From Escherichia phage UPWr_E1, in the sequence record PP418985.1: a stretch of 64,000 bases of DNA. The stretch is one strand, 5' to 3'. The notes under the pieces were generated by a model that had not been told where the DNA came from, ran no database searches, and saw only the letters and a program-made list of their open reading frames with translations. Each line of letters begins with the position of its first letter. Within the stretch, counting starts at the first letter, position 1. Positions 2,564-31,895 of this stretch are shown piece by piece. The translations under genes and the position numbers were made by a program.

Positions 2564-3511
2564 ATGACGTATAACCCGTTTACAAAAACTACCGCTACAC
2601 TTAATGATTTCTTCGATGATCCAGAAGATAAACTGCCGGAAGGTGTGCATTTGATTGATATGTCGCAGCTTATGATTGCTACTATCTCGCATACCTTTAA
2701 ACCGGAAGACCCTATTAATGAAGGCATGATTCGTCATCTTATCCTTGACACCATGCGTTATAATATGACAAAATTCAAAGAGCAATACCCAATTACGGTA
2801 CTTGCCTTTGATTCAAGTAAAGGTTACTGGCGACGTGATATCGCACCTTACTATAAACGCAACCGTAAGGAAAAACGAGACGCAGATCCGCGTGATTGGG
2901 AGATGATCTTTGCTGCGATCAATAAGATCACCGAAGAGTTTAAAGAGAACATGCCTTATCACGTTATTAAGGTTGACAAAGTTGAAGCAGATGATATAAT
3001 CGCTGTATTAACTAAAAAGTTTTCTGTAGAAGGTCGCCAGGTGCTGATCAACTCCGGCGATGGTGACTACACACAGTTGCACAAATACAAAAACGTGAAA
3101 CAGTGGGCGCCAGTACAGAAAGCATGGAAGAAATGCAAATATGGTAGCCCTTACAAAGACCTTATGGTAAAATGTGTTAAGGGTGACGCAAAAGACGGTG
3201 TAGCTTCTGTCAAATGTCGTAGTGATTTCATTATCTCACGACTGGAAGGGGAACGAGCTAAACCAATTGCGACCAAATGGTTAGAGCAAATTTTCGATGC
3301 CGAAGATCCAAAGTCTTTGATGACAGAGGAAGAAGCACGACGCTTTGACGAAAACCGCGAACTTATTGATTTCGATTACATCCCAGATGATATTCAGAAT
3401 CAAATTCTGGAGTCATGGGAAAAATCTAAACCAGCACCACGCGGTAAAATTTATAACTATTTTGTAACAAATGCGTTAGTTAAAATGTTGCAGAAAATTG
3501 GTGAGTTCTAA
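2564..3511 (+). CDS. rnh: RNase H / 5'-3' flap exonuclease
   Basis: 315 aa; T4 Rnh-like size and motifs; position next to gene 34 as in T4. Confidence 0.8.
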   Translation: MTYNPFTKTTATLNDFFDDPEDKLPEGVHLIDMSQLMIATISHTFKPEDPINEGMIRHLILDTMRYNMTKFKEQYPITVLAFDSSKGYWRRDIAPYYKRNRKEKRDADPRDWEMIFAAINKITEEFKENMPYHVIKVDKVEADDIIAVLTKKFSVEGRQVLINSGDGDYTQLHKYKNVKQWAPVQKAWKKCKYGSPYKDLMVKCVKGDAKDGVASVKCRSDFIISRLEGERAKPIATKWLEQIFDAEDPKSLMTEEEARRFDENRELIDFDYIPDDIQNQILESWEKSKPAPRGKIYNYFVTNALVKMLQKIGEF

Positions 3512-3521
3512 GGGTTGACAT

Positions 3522-4121
3522 ATGAAAGAACTTGAATTAAAATACTATGCCCATTCGCAGGATGGTGTAGAAACAATCTGTGATTTGTGGGTGGCAATGT
3601 ATGACGGTTATAATATCGTAGATCGAGATAACATATTAAAACACGAATTTTATTATGATACCGAAGATCATGCGCTACGTCAAAAAGGAATTTATGCACG
3701 ACTTGACTGTAGAAAATCAGAGATCATGGTCAAAATGGGTGATAATGAATCTGGACTATTCAACCGAGAGGAAATTACATTTTCAAATTGGGATGAGTTC
3801 GTCCATTTTATTGATAGTCTAGGGGTAAACTCCGACTATATCACTACAATAATGCAAGTAATGACATATCGCAAGTCATTGACTCTAGATATGGATTGTG
3901 GTATAGTGGAAATGTGCAAAGACACTTTCTATTATGGCAAAGTAGGCGAAGGAATTGGCGACACTGCTCATTATGAACTTGAGTTCGAGTTAAAATCAGG
4001 TGATGAAAAAGCACTTGACATTATCCGAGAAATGATGCTAGAATATATCGGCGATGATTTACGTCCTAGCGAAATCTCAAAAGCTGAACGCGGTTTTCAA
4101 TTAATGACGAAAGAGGGTTAA
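3522..4121 (+). CDS. CYTH-like protein (triphosphate tunnel metalloenzyme / class IV adenylate cyclase-like)
   Basis: 199 aa; N-terminal ExExK (MKELELKYY) and C-terminal acidic strand YELEFELK typical of CYTH fold; assignment by motif only. Confidence 0.45.
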   Translation: MKELELKYYAHSQDGVETICDLWVAMYDGYNIVDRDNILKHEFYYDTEDHALRQKGIYARLDCRKSEIMVKMGDNESGLFNREEITFSNWDEFVHFIDSLGVNSDYITTIMQVMTYRKSLTLDMDCGIVEMCKDTFYYGKVGEGIGDTAHYELEFELKSGDEKALDIIREMMLEYIGDDLRPSEISKAERGFQLMTKEG

Positions 4122-4657: not shown

Positions 4658-5338
4658 ATGATCAGAAACCGTCTTCCTCCAGATCCAGATATGCGAATTA
4701 ATGCTAAATCTGTGTATATGTTATATTGCATGATGAAAGCTCATATGAACGGGCGTTATGATTGCGTAAAATATAATTGGAGGATGCGGTTATCTGATGC
4801 CGCATTCAATAAACGCAGAGATAAGTATTATTTCGCGAAATTAGCGGAAAAGTACAATCTAAGAGAATTATACTTCCTATTCCTAAGCAATCTGGTAGCT
4901 AATACCGATGCATGGGTAGGTGAAATCACTGATGTTGACGCATACGGATTTTACATGGAGTATATCGGTAAGATCACTGATGCGGCAACAAGATTTGACG
5001 ACGATATCAAAAGTCTGGTATACTTCTCAGAGAAACGCGGGGTTACTCTTAAAGAGCTAATTACATATAATCCCGCAACCGAAACTAGCGGTATCTTTAA
5101 ACTGCTGCAAAATCGGATTATATCGTTTGAGTCGTTTATGTTGTTAGATAGCTTTCTAAATATAATCGACGAACACGACAAGGTAGCCAAAGACTTGATT
5201 TGGCAAACTTATAGTGTTAAAATGAAGGCGTACAAGAAACTACTTGTTATTGACGCCGCAAAAGCAAGAGCATTATTTGTTAAAGTAGTTAAAGAGTGTA
5301 AAGAAATATCTCAATTAAAAGCCGAAACAAATAGTTGA
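4658..5338 (+). CDS. 59: gp59 helicase loader
   Basis: 226 aa; strong resemblance to T4 gp59 (KSVY.LY.M.K.HMNG.YD..KYNW.MR.SDAA..KRRDKY.F.KL.EKY); RBS aagggg. Confidence 0.85.
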   Translation: MIRNRLPPDPDMRINAKSVYMLYCMMKAHMNGRYDCVKYNWRMRLSDAAFNKRRDKYYFAKLAEKYNLRELYFLFLSNLVANTDAWVGEITDVDAYGFYMEYIGKITDAATRFDDDIKSLVYFSEKRGVTLKELITYNPATETSGIFKLLQNRIISFESFMLLDSFLNIIDEHDKVAKDLIWQTYSVKMKAYKKLLVIDAAKARALFVKVVKECKEISQLKAETNS

Positions 5339-23596: not shown

Positions 23597-23625
23597 TTGA
23601 CAGGGGATCGGTGATCCCCTATAAT
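23597..23625 (+). promoter_or_regulatory. PeSL-type early promoter
   Basis: TTGACA, palindromic spacer ggggatcggtgatcccc, TATAAT. Confidence 0.55.
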
Positions 23626-26654: not shown

Positions 26655-26683
26655 TTGACACCTGATCACGCCTATAGCATAAT
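26655..26683 (+). promoter_or_regulatory. Early promoter
   Basis: TTGACA-17-CATAAT. Confidence 0.5.
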
Positions 26684-27360: not shown

Positions 27361-27390
27361 TTGACGGGGGATCGGGAGATCCCCTATAAT
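27361..27390 (+). promoter_or_regulatory. PeSL-type early promoter
   Basis: TTGACG, palindromic spacer ggggatcgggagatcccc, TATAAT. Confidence 0.55.
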
Positions 27391-27430: not shown

Positions 27431-27682
27431 ATGGCTAACATCGAAACCGCAAAGAAAATCGCTAAAGACCTGAACGTTAAAGGCTTCCGTAAACTGAAAT
27501 TACAGCGTGTACGCTACACCATCGGCAAACAGTGCTCTTTCATGAGCGAAGAAGTTGCTAACAGCCTCATCGATAATCTGATTGCGGCTGGCTGGGAAGT
27601 TGCGGATCTGAAAACTTGCCGCGAACTGGCTAACAAAGGTCTTTTAGATTCTGTTACTATCAAACCAATGGGGGCAGCGTGA
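27431..27682 (+). CDS. Hypothetical protein, 83 aa
   Basis: Starts MANIE, sharing its first 16 nt with ORF 29565. Confidence 0.5.
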   Translation: MANIETAKKIAKDLNVKGFRKLKLQRVRYTIGKQCSFMSEEVANSLIDNLIAAGWEVADLKTCRELANKGLLDSVTIKPMGAA

Positions 27683-28395
27683 AACAAAAATTAATATTCT
27701 GCAACTTTGACGGATCGGGGATAATGGGGCTAGAATGGGCTAAAGCAGGTCATAAGGTGATCTGCTTTAATGCTGACGATGGCGACCACGGTACATACAA
27801 AAAATATAATACCCGATTTGAACATCCAAACATTACCTATGTAAACACATGGATTGATTTGAACTGGCTGGAAAGAGCAATGGACCTTGAATGGGGGAAA
27901 CCGGATATTATATTTGCATTCCCACCGTGCACCAATTTAGCTGTTAGTGGCGCTGCACACTTTGAACGAAAGAAACGAGAGCAAGGACCATTAATTCAAG
28001 TTCATGATGTAAGGGCAGCTAAAATAACCGCTTATTTGGGCGAATGGTTAGGAGTTCCCTACATGATAGAGAATCCTGTAAGCGTTATCTCTAGCATGTG
28101 GCGTAAGCCTGATTATATGTTCCATCCGTGGGAATATGGCGGTTATTTGCCGGAAGATGATAAACATCCTACGTTTCCTGAGTATATTGCCGCCCGTGAT
28201 ATGTACCCGAAAAAGACTTGCTTATGGACCGGACAAGGCTTTATAATGCCAGAAAAGAAACCGTTGCAGATTAATAAAGGGTACAGTAAACAGCATTCTA
28301 AGCTAGGCGGGAAAGGAACCAGAACAAAGACTATCAGGTCACTTACACCGCGAGGATTCGCAAAGGCAGTATTTGAAGCCAATAAGGATCTATGA
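27679..28395 (+). CDS. DNA (cytosine-5)-methyltransferase-like protein
   Basis: 238 aa; motif I-like FDGSGIMGLEWAKAGHKVICFNADD, motif IV-like FPPCTNLAVSG, motif VI-like ENP; short for a complete C5-MTase. Confidence 0.4.
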   Translation: MKQKLIFCNFDGSGIMGLEWAKAGHKVICFNADDGDHGTYKKYNTRFEHPNITYVNTWIDLNWLERAMDLEWGKPDIIFAFPPCTNLAVSGAAHFERKKREQGPLIQVHDVRAAKITAYLGEWLGVPYMIENPVSVISSMWRKPDYMFHPWEYGGYLPEDDKHPTFPEYIAARDMYPKKTCLWTGQGFIMPEKKPLQINKGYSKQHSKLGGKGTRTKTIRSLTPRGFAKAVFEANKDL

Positions 28396-28724
28396 TGAGA
28401 TTGTTTAAGTATTCGCTAACGTCAAATTACGATAAACAAGGTCATTGCATCCGTTGCCCTGATTGCCATAGCCATAACATCGAAAGCAGGATCACCGATC
28501 ATATTGATGGACTTTGGTCGCCAGCAAGCGAGATAGAATACTATTGCGCTGATTGCGGAATTGTAGTAGCATATTGGGCATACGGATCATATGATCCCTA
28601 CTTCCAGATGGGAGAGCGTTCAATCCCTGCGCTTATCTGGAGAATTAAGAACAATATCCGCCATTCATGGGATGAGTTCTTAAAAGATATTGATTTACGT
28701 GATGATCCATTCAGGAGACTATAA
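28392..28724 (+). CDS. Zinc-ribbon protein, 110 aa
   Basis: CIRCPDCHSH ... CADCG cysteine pairs. Confidence 0.45.
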   Translation: MMRLFKYSLTSNYDKQGHCIRCPDCHSHNIESRITDHIDGLWSPASEIEYYCADCGIVVAYWAYGSYDPYFQMGERSIPALIWRIKNNIRHSWDEFLKDIDLRDDPFRRL

Positions 28725-28725
28725 C

Positions 28726-29244
28726 ATGAACCGTTTAACACCTAAACGCCGTTACTATACCAATACTAAAAACTTTGTCATCTCTGTTTATGAGGCGTGG
28801 TTAGAAGATGGCTATATCAACATGAACCCAGATTATCAGCGTCCTTTAGTATGGGACACCGAAAACAAACGTATGTTTATCGAAAACCTGATTAATGATT
28901 TTCCGGTTGGTGCTATCGCAATGGCTAAGATTGATGATGGCTCTCGCTATGAGATCGAAATCGTGGACGGTAAACAGCGTTTAAACGCAATATTCTCCTT
29001 TATGAAGGATGAGTTTAGCATTGCTGGTAATGATGATTCTATGCTGTATTACAGTGATTTTACGCCAGCAGAAAAGCGACGTTTCCGAAATCTCGGACTA
29101 CCCGCGATCATGATGGAAGAGAGCACAAGAGAAGACCGATTAGAGTATTTCTACAAAACAAACTTTTTCGGTGTTCCTCAATCGGAAGAACATCGCCAGC
29201 ATGTGATTGCCCTATTGCAAGATGAGCAATTAAAAAATAACTAA
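28726..29244 (+). CDS. DUF262 / ParB-like nuclease-domain protein
   Basis: 172 aa from ATG after RBS caggaga; NPDYQRPLVW and VDGKQRLNAI match the DUF262 signature (compare DGQQR). Confidence 0.45.
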   Translation: MNRLTPKRRYYTNTKNFVISVYEAWLEDGYINMNPDYQRPLVWDTENKRMFIENLINDFPVGAIAMAKIDDGSRYEIEIVDGKQRLNAIFSFMKDEFSIAGNDDSMLYYSDFTPAEKRRFRNLGLPAIMMEESTREDRLEYFYKTNFFGVPQSEEHRQHVIALLQDEQLKNN

Positions 29245-29252
29245 AAAAGTTG

Positions 29253-29281
29253 TTGACAGGGGATCATCGATCCCCTATAAT
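29253..29281 (+). promoter_or_regulatory. PeSL-type early promoter
   Basis: TTGACA, palindromic spacer ggggatcatcgatcccc, TATAAT. Confidence 0.55.
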
Positions 29282-29843: not shown

Positions 29844-31895
29844 ATGTTTAACTTAGAAATCGACGATCTAATGATTGAATCTTTCGAGAAATGGCTGTTG
29901 ACGGAAGAGGAAGAAAACTTTGGTAGTATTGCTCCGGTACAGTGCTTAAAGCCTAAGCAGAACCCTAAACAGCTTTTTGCAGTACAGACACGCGATAAAG
30001 ATGTGATTGTCCGTCTTTGTAACTTCACCAACAAAACACCTAAAATCATTCGTCTTGGTGACAAGACCGCACATGTTGTACTGTGCGAAATGAACAAAAG
30101 CGGTCGTATTGTACAGCTTAAAAATGGTCTAGGCGATAACCCGATTGCAGTTATGGCAAGTGCTTTTGATGTGGTTATGGAAACAGCCCGTAAAGCGCAA
30201 TTAGACGCTGTTATGTTCCGTTTTAACGTATCCCGCATGAAAGGTAAGACCGAACTGGTTAAGCGCGTTATAGAGCGTTTGGTGCGTCGTACACCTAAGT
30301 TTGAAGTATTCCAGCAGGAAGTAATGACCAGCAAAAAGATCGCTTTAGTTGTTGTCAAGCGTCGCGGGATGGCGATTGATAAGATTAAAGGGATTAAACT
30401 TGATGATTCCCTGTTCACTAAAGTAGAAAGTGATTTAGGTGATCGCTGGGTATCTAAAGCTACTGGCGAATCTCTGACTAAAGATGAAGCGTATGCGGCT
30501 AGCCTTGCATCAGAAGAAGAACGAAACGCAGAAGCGGAACAACGTGTAGCGGCTAAGTCTCGTTTGACTAAAGAAGAAATGCTGAAAACTCAAGCGACCT
30601 ATAACAGCGACTATGTGAATCATCCAGAAAAAATTAATCTTAAACCGGAAGAAGATATCACCGAAGCCGAACCTAAGAAACAGTTTAATACTCTGATTGA
30701 TCGTCAAGCCTTAGAACGTTCAACCGCTCGTTCTCTGAATGACTGGACAAGTGATATTATCACTCGCTACGGTTTCATGCGTACTATTTTTGAAAGCGAA
30801 GCCGATGCAAAATACGCAGTAAGCGAACTGGTAAAAGTTCAGGACCAATATGATCCGTTGTCTGCGGAAGTTATTGCAGCATCAATCAAACGCTTAAAAG
30901 AAATCATGAGCGAGGAAGTATTCGAAAACAAGATCACCGCCCTGGCAATGGATCGAGTAGACCAGTCTATGCCAGCAGATGTAAAAGCTGAAATGCTTCG
31001 TAGTCACATCACACAGATTAAAACCGATGCCCTACGTAATGTTGCTTCCGGTATGTTTGAAGCAATTGCTAGCAACATGGGTGAAATGATGGCAAATATT
31101 GATCTTGATCTGCCGGGCGCGGAAGGTTTTGTGTTGAGCGAATATGCCGATGCAGCATACATCAATATGAACAACTTCCTAACCGACCGTAAGCTGGAAG
31201 AGTTTGACGGCATCGCAGATCCAGAAGAATTGGTCAAGATGTGCGATGCACTGGATAATGCCTTCTCTAACTATGGCGTTAAACTTGATCCGGGTACTAT
31301 TCTGTATCGTGGTATGGACTTCCGGTCTCAAATGTGGGAAACTGCACGTAAGCAAAAAGCGTTTTACTTTAAAAACTATGTGAGCACTTCCCTTGCACCT
31401 AACATTTTTGGTGGCTGGAATGCAAACGTGGCTAGTGCCGTTGCTGGTGTAGATTCTATGGCTGGATCTCGCGGTGAAGGTGGCGCTAATGTTGCTTTCT
31501 CCATTGCTGGCGCGGAAAACATCCCTGTATTGCCAGTAGGTAACAAGGCATTTGCTTACAAAGAATGCGAGATTTTACTTCCTCGCGGTGTTGTGTTATC
31601 CTTTGATACGGTAACTCGTGCTACGGCATCGACGGATTCACAAGAAACTTATTACATTGAGGCACATATTATGAACAAAAATGAACTGGCAGCATTACAA
31701 GAATCTGGCGAGATGATCGCGGACGGTGATGCATTCATCCGTGAAGGTGTTGTTAAACCTGCTTCTGACCTGTCTTTCTCCAGCTTTATTACCGAAGCTA
31801 AAACCGAACGTAAGAAAGCAGATAAGGCAACTCTACGTCAGCTTATCGCTGATCTGGTATCTGTAGACGCAATGCCAGATAAATTTAAAATGTAA
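29844..31895 (+). CDS. alt: Alt-like ADP-ribosyltransferase (packaged, modifies host RNA polymerase in T4)
   Basis: 683 aa (T4 Alt is 682 aa); C-terminal R-S-E type ART motifs LYRG, YVSTSL, ECEILLP. Confidence 0.7.
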   Translation: MFNLEIDDLMIESFEKWLLTEEEENFGSIAPVQCLKPKQNPKQLFAVQTRDKDVIVRLCNFTNKTPKIIRLGDKTAHVVLCEMNKSGRIVQLKNGLGDNPIAVMASAFDVVMETARKAQLDAVMFRFNVSRMKGKTELVKRVIERLVRRTPKFEVFQQEVMTSKKIALVVVKRRGMAIDKIKGIKLDDSLFTKVESDLGDRWVSKATGESLTKDEAYAASLASEEERNAEAEQRVAAKSRLTKEEMLKTQATYNSDYVNHPEKINLKPEEDITEAEPKKQFNTLIDRQALERSTARSLNDWTSDIITRYGFMRTIFESEADAKYAVSELVKVQDQYDPLSAEVIAASIKRLKEIMSEEVFENKITALAMDRVDQSMPADVKAEMLRSHITQIKTDALRNVASGMFEAIASNMGEMMANIDLDLPGAEGFVLSEYADAAYINMNNFLTDRKLEEFDGIADPEELVKMCDALDNAFSNYGVKLDPGTILYRGMDFRSQMWETARKQKAFYFKNYVSTSLAPNIFGGWNANVASAVAGVDSMAGSRGEGGANVAFSIAGAENIPVLPVGNKAFAYKECEILLPRGVVLSFDTVTRATASTDSQETYYIEAHIMNKNELAALQESGEMIADGDAFIREGVVKPASDLSFSSFITEAKTERKKADKATLRQLIADLVSVDAMPDKFKM

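What the first reader, a model, noticed from the sequence alone, without database searches (positions are those of the whole stretch)
27679..29244. Methyltransferase-like, zinc-ribbon and DUF262/ParB-like gene trio in the accessory island
Three overlapping ORFs form an apparent operon. The 238-aa protein carries C5-cytosine methyltransferase-like motifs (FDGSG..., PPC..SG, ENP) but is too short for a canonical enzyme. The 110-aa protein has paired cysteines. The 172-aa protein has the DYQRP and DGKQR signatures of DUF262, a domain found in GmrSD-type modification-dependent nucleases. Such a combination could act in DNA modification, anti-restriction or exclusion of competing phages. The window shows no alc homolog and no introns in td or nrdB, consistent with unmodified cytosine, where a methyltransferase would be relevant.
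Basis: inference. Interest (0 to 1): 0.6.

Follow-up and report, generated by a model that had tools for sequence, protein, structure and literature searches.

The report
Compact phage Dcm methylase plus two neighbours
The three genes are real early genes of an RB49-like T4-type phage: a compact, already-described phage cytosine-5 DNA methylase, a small zinc-ribbon protein and a nuclease-less DUF262 protein. They sit together only in this phage genus, so they look like three separate accessory genes rather than a new three-part system.

Summary
ORFs 27679-28395 (238 aa), 28392-28724 (110 aa) and 28726-29244 (172 aa) exist, are translationally coupled, and carry the motifs described. Together with an upstream 83-aa gene they form one early transcription unit between two promoter-stem-loop (PeSL) cassettes.

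The window is a Krischvirus (RB49/JSE-like, 98% nt identity).

- **238-aa protein.** It belongs to a very large family of about 230-aa phage C5-cytosine methyltransferases (1587 phage records). The model is confident, and its best structural matches are DNMT3B, a prophage MTase and M.HhaI. It is 56% identical to the Dcm of phage KarlJaspers. A preprint reports that the Dcm of the closely related phage K42 makes 5mC and triggers retron Ec86.
- **172-aa protein.** It is a complete stand-alone DUF262/ParB-fold domain with no nuclease domain, so it is not a GmrSD-type enzyme.
- **110-aa protein.** It is a CxxC...CxxC zinc ribbon of unknown function.

None of 80 diverse methylase loci has either partner within 5 kb, and homologues of the other two genes have different neighbours. 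The trio is therefore a lineage-specific juxtaposition.

Published data show no bulk cytosine modification in RB49 or TB34 virions, so any methylation is sparse. Interest is low to moderate.

The parts
27361..27390 (+). Early sigma-70-type promoter with a GGGGATC...GATCCCC stem-loop in its spacer (PeSL cassette). It marks the start of the transcription unit.
   Evidence: TTGACG-18-TATAAT scores 11/12. The pattern TTGACNGGGGATC..GATCCCCTATAAT occurs 3 times in the window and 0 times in 100 shuffles. The equivalent promoter is annotated in GEC-3S. PeSLs are described in PMC2839356 and PMC4122927.
27431..27682 (+). 83-aa gene of unknown function, first gene of the unit. It is the homologue of RB49p190.
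   Evidence: phrog_14908 at E 5e-59. Identical to RB49p190. Its stop overlaps the methylase start.
27679..28395 (+). Compact Dcm-like C5-cytosine DNA methyltransferase, 238 aa, GTG start. Homologue of RB49p189.
28392..28724 (+). 110-aa zinc-ribbon protein (C22xxC25 ... C52xxC55) of unknown function. Homologue of RB49p188.
   Evidence: phrog_2993 at E 7e-34. Weak Zn_Ribbon_TF match, 19.2 bits, below the cut-off of 29. All five cysteines are conserved in the Nonagvirus JenK1 homologue. Homologues occur in 292 phage records.
28726..29244 (+). 172-aa stand-alone DUF262 (ParB/sulfiredoxin-fold) protein with no nuclease domain. Homologue of RB49p187.
29253..29281 (+). Next PeSL early promoter, a perfect TTGACA-17-TATAAT. 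It marks the downstream boundary of the unit.

Best explanation
The region is one early transcription unit of an RB49-like (Krischvirus) phage. It is bounded by two PeSL promoter cassettes and carries four small accessory genes that were assembled by modular shuffling. It is not a dedicated multi-component system.

1. **The 238-aa protein** is an active, compact, DNMT3-like C5-cytosine DNA methyltransferase of the widespread 'phage Dcm' family. Expressed early, it uses SAM and the Cys84 nucleophile to put 5-methylcytosine on a short, infrequent motif in replicating phage DNA, and incidentally in host DNA. The likely benefit is protection of progeny DNA from type II/III restriction. The cost is that retron Ec86-type sensors can detect it.
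2. **The 172-aa protein** is a stand-alone DUF262/ParB-fold nucleotide-binding domain. Without a nuclease domain it cannot be a GmrSD-type restriction enzyme. It most likely acts on its own as an NTP-dependent DNA-binding or regulatory protein.
3. **The 110-aa protein** is a small zinc-ribbon protein of unknown role.

Shown here: gene structure, folds, family membership, conserved catalytic residues, and lack of co-occurrence. Inferred: methyl transfer by this particular protein, its target motif, the anti-restriction benefit, and any function for genes 2 and 3.
For: **Phage identity.** The region is 98% nt identical to JSE, G2248 and JK32, and 97.5% to RB49.

**Methylase.**
- PHROG 757 matches at E 2e-90.
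- The family has 7317 hits in the 90%-cluster database and 1161 50%-cluster representatives, typically 210-260 aa.
- It occurs in 1587 phage records across Drexlerviridae, Dhillonvirus, rV5-like, phi92-like and Webervirus phages.
- C84, G91, E131, P133, K178, T180, W183 and R220 are invariant in 55 sequences.
- It is 56% identical, E 4e-92, over its full length to KarlJaspers bas06_0055, a 711-bp 'Dcm-like' gene.
- The homologue in tunus has C82/E128/K175/K176 exactly as numbered for phage K42 Dcm.
- A preprint reports that K42 Dcm adds 5mC to msDNA and triggers retron Ec86, and that the C82A/E128A/K175A/K176A mutant is inactive.

**Early expression.**

**Independence of the three genes.**
- None of 80 diverse methylase loci has a DUF262 or zinc-ribbon ORF within about 5 kb, by phmmer or by profile HMM.
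- The closest non-Krischvirus methylase (63% identity, 152-kb contig) is flanked by HNH and SIR2 genes.
- Short DUF262 homologues in RB43, Matisse, the P22-like UPF_BP1 and three metagenome contigs have unrelated neighbours.
- Zinc-ribbon homologues occur in Nonagvirus and FelixO1-like phages.

**DUF262 without nuclease.**
Against: - No activity has been measured for the Krischvirus protein itself.
- RB49 DNA is cut by the 5mC-sensitive enzymes HpaII and NheI.
- TB34 carries the same operon, yet no modified nucleoside was detected by HPLC-MS. Any methylation is therefore sparse, absent from virions, or directed at another substrate.
- PF00145 scores only 13.9 bits, below its cut-off of 22. No PDB sequence match is significant.
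- The motif II acidic residue, Asp in 52 of 55 homologues, is Asn31 here. KarlJaspers and tunus share that Asn.
- CCWGG, the motif assumed for K42 Dcm, is depleted 2.5-fold in the window. That is not what a reliably self-protected site would show.
- Tight translational coupling of the three genes in all 56 Krischvirus records is compatible with a functional link. Comparative genomics alone cannot exclude one.
- The retron evidence comes from a preprint, and it used a host that has its own Dcm.
Confidence: 0.7

Rival explanations
1. The three proteins form one functional module. The methylase lacks a target-recognition domain, so the zinc-ribbon and DUF262/ParB-like proteins act as its DNA-binding, loading or specificity subunits. 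This would be analogous to the ParB-N::methyltransferase fusions common in phages.
Against: About 1500 other phage genomes carry the same methylase family without either partner, and 80 of 80 sampled loci lack them. By the preprint's report, the K42 homologue worked when expressed alone from a plasmid. The DUF262 and zinc-ribbon families occur in phages with other neighbours.
Confidence: 0.1
2. The stand-alone DUF262 protein is an anti-defence factor. As a nuclease-less mimic, it would poison or titrate host DUF262-containing defence enzymes (GmrSD/BrxU, SspE, Dnd-associated proteins) by forming mixed oligomers or competing for their ligand.
For: It is a complete DUF262 domain with the DGKQR motif invariant and no effector domain. 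It matches defence-system models only over their N-terminal domain: NsnA at 1e-20, PD-T4-2_A at 5e-12. It is expressed from an early promoter. It recurs as a short protein in many T4-like and temperate phages.
Against: There is no experimental or literature support. Krischvirus DNA is unmodified, so it is not a natural GmrSD target. The conserved NTP-site motifs suggest the domain has its own enzymatic or binding function rather than acting as a passive decoy.
Confidence: 0.1
3. The methylase-like protein does not make 5mC in DNA. It either transfers a different group, as the C5-carboxymethyltransferase 8yf3 does, or acts on RNA, as DNMT2 does. In this lineage it might also be an inactive relic.
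Against: The product of the 56%-identical K42 enzyme matched the 5mC standard by LC-MS. The catalytic residues are strictly conserved, and the protein is 96.6-100% identical across Krischvirus records. That argues against decay. DNA methyltransferases outrank the RNA enzymes in the fold search.
Confidence: 0.1

Closest known systems
Phage K42 / KarlJaspers (Bas06) 'Dcm', the trigger of retron Ec86 (bioRxiv 10.1101/2023.08.16.553469)
   Same: Same family and same length (236 against 238 aa), with 56% identity over the full length. The mutated residues C82, E128, K175 and K176 correspond to C84, E131, K177 and K178 here. Both share the unusual Asn in motif II, both are DNMT3-like in predicted structure, and both are early accessory genes.
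   Different: The host phage is different: a T4-type Krischvirus rather than a T1-type Drexlerviridae phage. Here the gene is followed by zinc-ribbon and DUF262 genes that are absent in KarlJaspers. Activity, motif and retron triggering are untested for this protein. RB49 is routinely grown on E. coli B, and the B derivative BL21(DE3) carries retron Ec86 natively.
DNMT3A/3B catalytic domain and bacterial C5-methyltransferases (M.HhaI, M.HaeIII, prophage 3g7u)
   Different: It is only 238 aa with almost no target-recognition domain. It falls below the Pfam PF00145 threshold. It has a family-specific conserved insert, WRKPD..F.P.EYGGYLP..D.HP.
GmrSD / BrxU / SspE modification-dependent defence enzymes
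   Same: The N-terminal DUF262 domain with its DGQQR-type motif.
   Different: There is no DUF1524/His-Me nuclease domain, and the protein is 172 aa against 560-820 aa. It is phage-encoded and expressed early. It therefore cannot work as a restriction enzyme by itself.
PeSL (promoter-early stem-loop) mobile regulatory cassettes of T4-type phages (PMC2839356, PMC4122927)
   Same: The unit is bounded by two copies of the TTGAC-GGGGATC..GATCCCC-TATAAT element, in the hyperplastic region upstream of alt.
   Different: Nothing differs. This is the described architecture, and it explains why unrelated accessory genes end up adjacent.

Membership tests
C5-cytosine DNA methyltransferase superfamily | Motif IV Pro-Cys with the catalytic cysteine | tested here: met
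   F81-P-P-C84 is present. Cys is invariant in 55 of 55 diverse homologues.
C5-cytosine DNA methyltransferase superfamily | Motif VI Glu-Asn-Val type | tested here: met
   E131-N132-P133 is present. Glu is found in 55/55 and Asn in 53/55.
C5-cytosine DNA methyltransferase superfamily | Motif I F-x-G-x-G and the motif II acidic residue (SAM binding) | tested here: inconclusive
   The window protein has F10-D-G-S-G14, but the family consensus is F-D-x-T/S-G. The motif II position is Asn31 where 52 of 55 homologues have Asp. The K42-type relatives share the Asn.
C5-cytosine DNA methyltransferase superfamily | Catalytic-domain fold | tested here: met
C5-cytosine DNA methyltransferase superfamily | Pfam PF00145 gathering score | tested here: not met
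   It scores 13.9 bits against a cut-off of 22, and only the motif I-IV region aligns.
C5-cytosine DNA methyltransferase superfamily | Sizeable target-recognition domain between motifs VIII and IX | tested here: not met
   About 35 residues lie between the K178-T180-W183 strand and R220.
Compact phage Dcm family (K42/KarlJaspers type) | Full-length homology, and conservation of the residues whose mutation abolishes activity | tested here: met
   56% identity at E 4e-92, 238 against 236 aa. C, E and KK are conserved.
Compact phage Dcm family (K42/KarlJaspers type) | 5mC formation on DNA and triggering of retron Ec86 | not testable with these tools
   This is reported only for K42 Dcm. Published virion data for RB49 and TB34 show no bulk modification.
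GmrSD-type modification-dependent nuclease | N-terminal DUF262 domain | tested here: met
   PF03235 scores 73.2 bits against a cut-off of 33.2. DGKQR is invariant.
GmrSD-type modification-dependent nuclease | C-terminal DUF1524 / His-Me-finger nuclease domain | tested here: not met
   The protein ends at residue 172 with the DUF262 C-terminal motif. Pfam finds no second domain. Only the N-terminal parts of the defence models match.
ParB/sulfiredoxin-fold (DUF262) domain | Fold similarity to ParB-N and to solved DUF262 structures | tested here: met
Zinc ribbon | Two conserved CxxC knuckles | tested here: met
   C22xxC25 and C52xxC55 are conserved in the JenK1 homologue. Pfam Zn_Ribbon_TF scores only 19.2 bits, below its cut-off of 29.
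Conserved multi-gene system (methylase + zinc ribbon + DUF262) | Co-occurrence of the genes across unrelated lineages | tested here: not met
   They are adjacent only in 56 Krischvirus records. None of 80 other methylase loci has the partners, and the partners occur alone elsewhere.

The most novel reading that the evidence does not exclude
The two uncharacterised neighbours may not be passengers. The nuclease-less DUF262 protein, possibly together with the zinc-ribbon protein, could be a new kind of phage counter-defence factor. One version is that it mimics and poisons host DUF262 defence enzymes. Another is that it shields the phage from the consequences of carrying a Dcm, for example retron Ec86 activation, given that RB49 grows on E. 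coli B and the B derivative BL21(DE3) carries that retron. A third version is that it supplies DNA targeting to the methylase, which lacks a recognition domain.
Probability: 0.12. Interest if true: 0.6.

Novelty: new member of a known kind. Interest (0 to 1): 0.25.

Why it matters
The finding gives names to three 'hypothetical' early genes of a widely used phage group (RB49, JSE, phi1, and therapy candidates).

It links the Krischvirus methylase to the phage Dcm family that retron Ec86 reportedly senses. That predicts an interaction between these phages and retron-carrying hosts.

It also removes a tempting but unsupported reading of a methylase/GmrSD-like 'system'. The operon is identical in TB34 and SAP, so it cannot explain the published puzzle that SAP DNA is reported as modified while TB34 DNA is not.

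Two questions stay open and are testable. How does a 238-aa C5-methyltransferase with almost no recognition domain choose its sites? What do stand-alone DUF262 proteins do in phages?

Tried and rejected
- **Sequence searches of the methylase against solved structures.** The single sequence and the 55-sequence profile gave nothing significant. Only the fold search was informative.
- **NCBIfam.** No hits for the methylase or the DUF262 protein.
- **Word-indexed homologue search.** It found almost nothing for the zinc-ribbon protein (1 cluster) and little for DUF262 (7 clusters). tblastn against phage genomes was needed instead.
- **The RB43/Matisse gene upstream of DUF262.** I checked whether this roughly 110-aa gene is a hidden zinc-ribbon homologue. 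It is not: it has no cysteine pairs and has a C-terminal hydrophobic helix.
- **CCWGG as a signature of self-methylation.** The motif is depleted 2.5-fold, but so are several unrelated 5-mers, and the deamination products are not enriched. This is uninformative about specificity.
- **Link to the reported hmC/glucosyl-hmC DNA of Krischvirus SAP.** Rejected, because the operon is base-for-base identical in SAP and in the unmodified TB34.
- **Literature on stand-alone phage DUF262 proteins.** The search found nothing relevant.

Full report
**What the window is.** The 1.9 kb around the finding is 97.5-98.1% identical at the nucleotide level to Escherichia phages JSE, G2248, JK32, RB49, GEC-3S and about 50 others of the genus Krischvirus, the 'pseudo-T-even' RB49 group. 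The next large gene downstream (29844-31895) is the Alt-like ADP-ribosyltransferase. In RB49 the three genes are RB49p189, p188 and p187. RefSeq already calls p189 'DNA methyltransferase', and some records call it Dcm or C-5 cytosine methylase. One record labels p187 'DUF262 domain protein'.

**Checking the observation.**
- All three ORFs are at the stated coordinates.
- The methylase ORF begins with GTG at 27679, inside a GTGA that overlaps the stop of an upstream 83-aa gene, behind a GGGGG Shine-Dalgarno.
- The zinc-ribbon ORF begins at ATG 28392 and overlaps the methylase stop.
- The DUF262 ORF begins at ATG 28726, one base after the previous stop, behind AGGAG.
- The unit has four genes, not three. 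A near-consensus early promoter at 27361-27390 precedes the 83-aa gene (27431-27682), and the next such promoter lies at 29253-29281. GEC-3S carries the same annotation.
- Both promoters hold a GGGGATC...GATCCCC stem-loop in the spacer. The composite pattern occurs 3 times in the window and never in 100 shuffles. These are the PeSL 'mobile regulatory cassettes' described for RB49/phi1, which mediate modular shuffling of accessory genes (PMC2839356, PMC4122927).

**The 238-aa protein: family and fold.**
- Pfam sees only a sub-threshold match to the motif I-IV part of PF00145 (13.9 bits against a cut-off of 22). NCBIfam sees nothing.
- PHROG 757 'DNA methyltransferase' matches end to end at E 2e-90.
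- The family is very large. There are 7317 hits among 90%-identity clusters, the best 120 of which are 219-259 aa. There are 1161 representatives at the 50% level. It occurs in 1587 phage records spanning T1-like Drexlerviridae, Dhillonvirus, rV5-like, phi92-like and Klebsiella Webervirus phages, among others.
- In an alignment of 55 diverse members, the invariant residues include C84 in F-P-P-C, E131 in E-N-P, K178, T180, W183 and R220.
- An AlphaFold model built on this alignment is confident (pLDDT 91.7, pTM 0.90).
- By eye, the sequences after motif VI resemble the DNMT3 versions of motifs VIII and X. This reading is my own and was not tested with a tool.
- Only about 35 residues occupy the place of a target-recognition domain.

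**The 238-aa protein: link to a studied enzyme.**
- A 2023 preprint (10.1101/2023.08.16.553469) isolated escape mutants of phage K42, which is 95% identical to the BASEL phage KarlJaspers. The mutations mapped to a 711-bp 'dcm' gene.
- The preprint reported that expressing this gene is toxic only when retron Ec86 is present, and that it adds 5mC to the msDNA by LC-MS. A C82A/E128A/K175A/K176A mutant was reported inactive.
- I retrieved KarlJaspers (MZ501090). Its 711-bp 'Dcm-like C5 cytosine methyltransferase' is 56% identical to the window protein over the full length, E 4e-92.
- The homologue in phage tunus carries C82, E128, K175 and K176 at exactly those numbers.
- The window protein is therefore a member of a family with one experimentally supported methyltransferase. 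It also shares with these relatives the Asn that replaces the near-invariant motif II Asp.

**What limits the methylase claim.**
- RB49 DNA is cut by HpaII and NheI, both blocked by 5mC (PMC4041780).
- HPLC-MS found no modified nucleoside in Krischvirus TB34 (PMC13390438), although TB34 has the same operon.
- Methylation, if it occurs, must therefore be at rare sites or be incomplete. If the motif were CCWGG, the window's 30 sites per 64 kb would mean well under 1% of cytosines by my rough estimate. That could escape bulk analysis.
- CCWGG is depleted 2.5-fold, but so are unrelated 5-mers, so this says little.

**The 172-aa protein.**
- PF03235 (GmrSD_N/DUF262) matches at 73.2 bits, E 4e-20.
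- Defence-system models (NsnA, PD-T4-2_A, REase, Orf5, HEC-05/06) match only through their N-terminal domain.
- A profile of the short family hits the solved DUF262 proteins 9jfl, 20yv and BrxU 7p9k.
- The motifs YQR..VW, DGKQRL and NF.GVPQSEEH are invariant.
- The protein ends with the DUF262 domain and has no DUF1524/His-Me nuclease, so it fails a defining feature of GmrSD-type enzymes.
- Similar short proteins are found in 324 phage records, including RB43, Slopekvirus, Pectobacterium and Erwinia myoviruses and a P22-like temperate phage.

**The 110-aa protein.** It has a C-P-x-C ... C-x-x-C zinc ribbon that is conserved in its Nonagvirus homologue. It gives weak, sub-threshold zinc-ribbon matches and a strong PHROG 2993 match of unknown function. 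Homologues occur in 292 phage records: Krischvirus, Nonagvirus, FelixO1-like phages and some podoviruses.

**Are the three a system?** The comparative evidence says no.
- I fetched 80 diverse viral loci that encode the methylase family (39-63% identity). I searched every ORF of 40 aa or more with single sequences and with profile HMMs of the DUF262 and zinc-ribbon families. Only the Krischvirus loci scored.
- The nearest non-Krischvirus methylase, on a 152-kb contig, is flanked by HNH and SIR2 genes.
- The short DUF262 genes of RB43, Matisse, UPF_BP1 and three metagenomic contigs have unrelated neighbours.
- The JenK1 zinc-ribbon gene sits among small hypothetical genes near dUTPase.
- The complete trio occurs only in the 56 Krischvirus records.
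- Together with the flanking PeSL cassettes, the simplest reading is three independent accessory genes joined by modular shuffling and kept together by descent.
- A lineage-specific functional link cannot be excluded, because the coupling is tight. I give it about 10%.

**Mechanism, with steps marked.**
- Shown: an early promoter drives a four-gene message; the fold and catalytic residues are those of a C5-methyltransferase; the protein is a close homologue of an enzyme with reported activity.
- Inferred: Cys84 attacks C6 of a flipped-out cytosine and a methyl group is transferred from SAM. The target is a short, infrequent motif. The benefit is protection from restriction, and the liability is detection by retron Ec86-type sensors.
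- Speculative: the stand-alone DUF262 protein is a nucleotide-dependent DNA-binding or regulatory protein, or alternatively a decoy for host DUF262 defence enzymes. No role can be proposed for the zinc ribbon.

**Relation to the SAP/TB34 puzzle.** A 2026 paper reports that Krischvirus SAP has hmC-derived modifications while the 99.96%-identical TB34 has none, and that no pathway is known. The promoter-to-stop stretch of this operon is identical in the two phages, so these genes do not explain the difference.

**Verdict.** However, the genes are already annotated, the methylase belongs to a known and partly characterised phage family, and the proposed three-part system is not supported. This is a new member of a known kind, of low to moderate interest.

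Noticed in passing
window 27660-27700; L001 (RB49) 3280-3525: RB49, GEC-3S, TB34 and most relatives carry an extra 246-nt gene (RB49p189.1, 81 aa) between the 83-aa gene and the methylase. This window lacks it, as do JSE, G2248 and JK32. The junction here is the ribosome-binding site and GTG of p189.1 fused to codon 2 of the methylase. The two gene starts share TGAAAnnAAAATTAAT, so the indel arose by recombination between similar 5' ends. This explains why the methylase starts with GTG here and with ATG in RB49.
   Followed up: partly
window 23597-23625, 27361-27390, 29253-29281: There are three copies of the PeSL element: an early promoter with a GGGGATC..GATCCCC stem-loop in the spacer. None was found in 100 shuffles. 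Weaker promoter-like sites of the same type lie at 26655, 27003 and 29500.
   Followed up: partly
L099 (phage SAP) about 5075-5233, against L002 (TB34) 5075-5155: SAP and TB34 are identical across the operon. SAP has a 79-bp tandem duplication of the PeSL promoter and ribosome-binding site immediately downstream of the DUF262 gene. This is one of the few differences between the phage reported as 'modified' and the 'unmodified' one. It could also be an assembly artefact.
   Followed up: partly
whole window: Several G+C-rich short motifs are strongly under-represented against a Markov expectation: GGCC 20 observed against 68 expected, CCWGG 30 against 74, CCSGG 15 against 38, GGCCC 0 against 6. 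GATC is not depleted (377 against 363). This suggests restriction-site avoidance in a phage with unmodified cytosine.
   Followed up: partly
window 27679-28395 (residue 31): The motif II position that is Asp in 52 of 55 family members is Asn in the Krischvirus protein. It is also Asn in the KarlJaspers and tunus proteins. This subgroup therefore contacts the SAM ribose differently, or uses the following Asp-Asp.
   Followed up: no
literature, not sequence: RB49 is routinely propagated on E. coli B (PMC4041780). The B derivative BL21(DE3) carries a native retron Ec86, which a homologous phage Dcm reportedly triggers. Either the Krischvirus Dcm does not trigger the retron or the phage tolerates or counters it.
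   Followed up: no
window 29844-31895 and downstream: The Alt-like RNA polymerase ADP-ribosyltransferase (683 aa; PF03496 at E 2e-9, phrog_802 at E 4e-180) lies directly downstream. In RB49 it is followed by a second, shorter ADP-ribosyltransferase gene.
   Followed up: no
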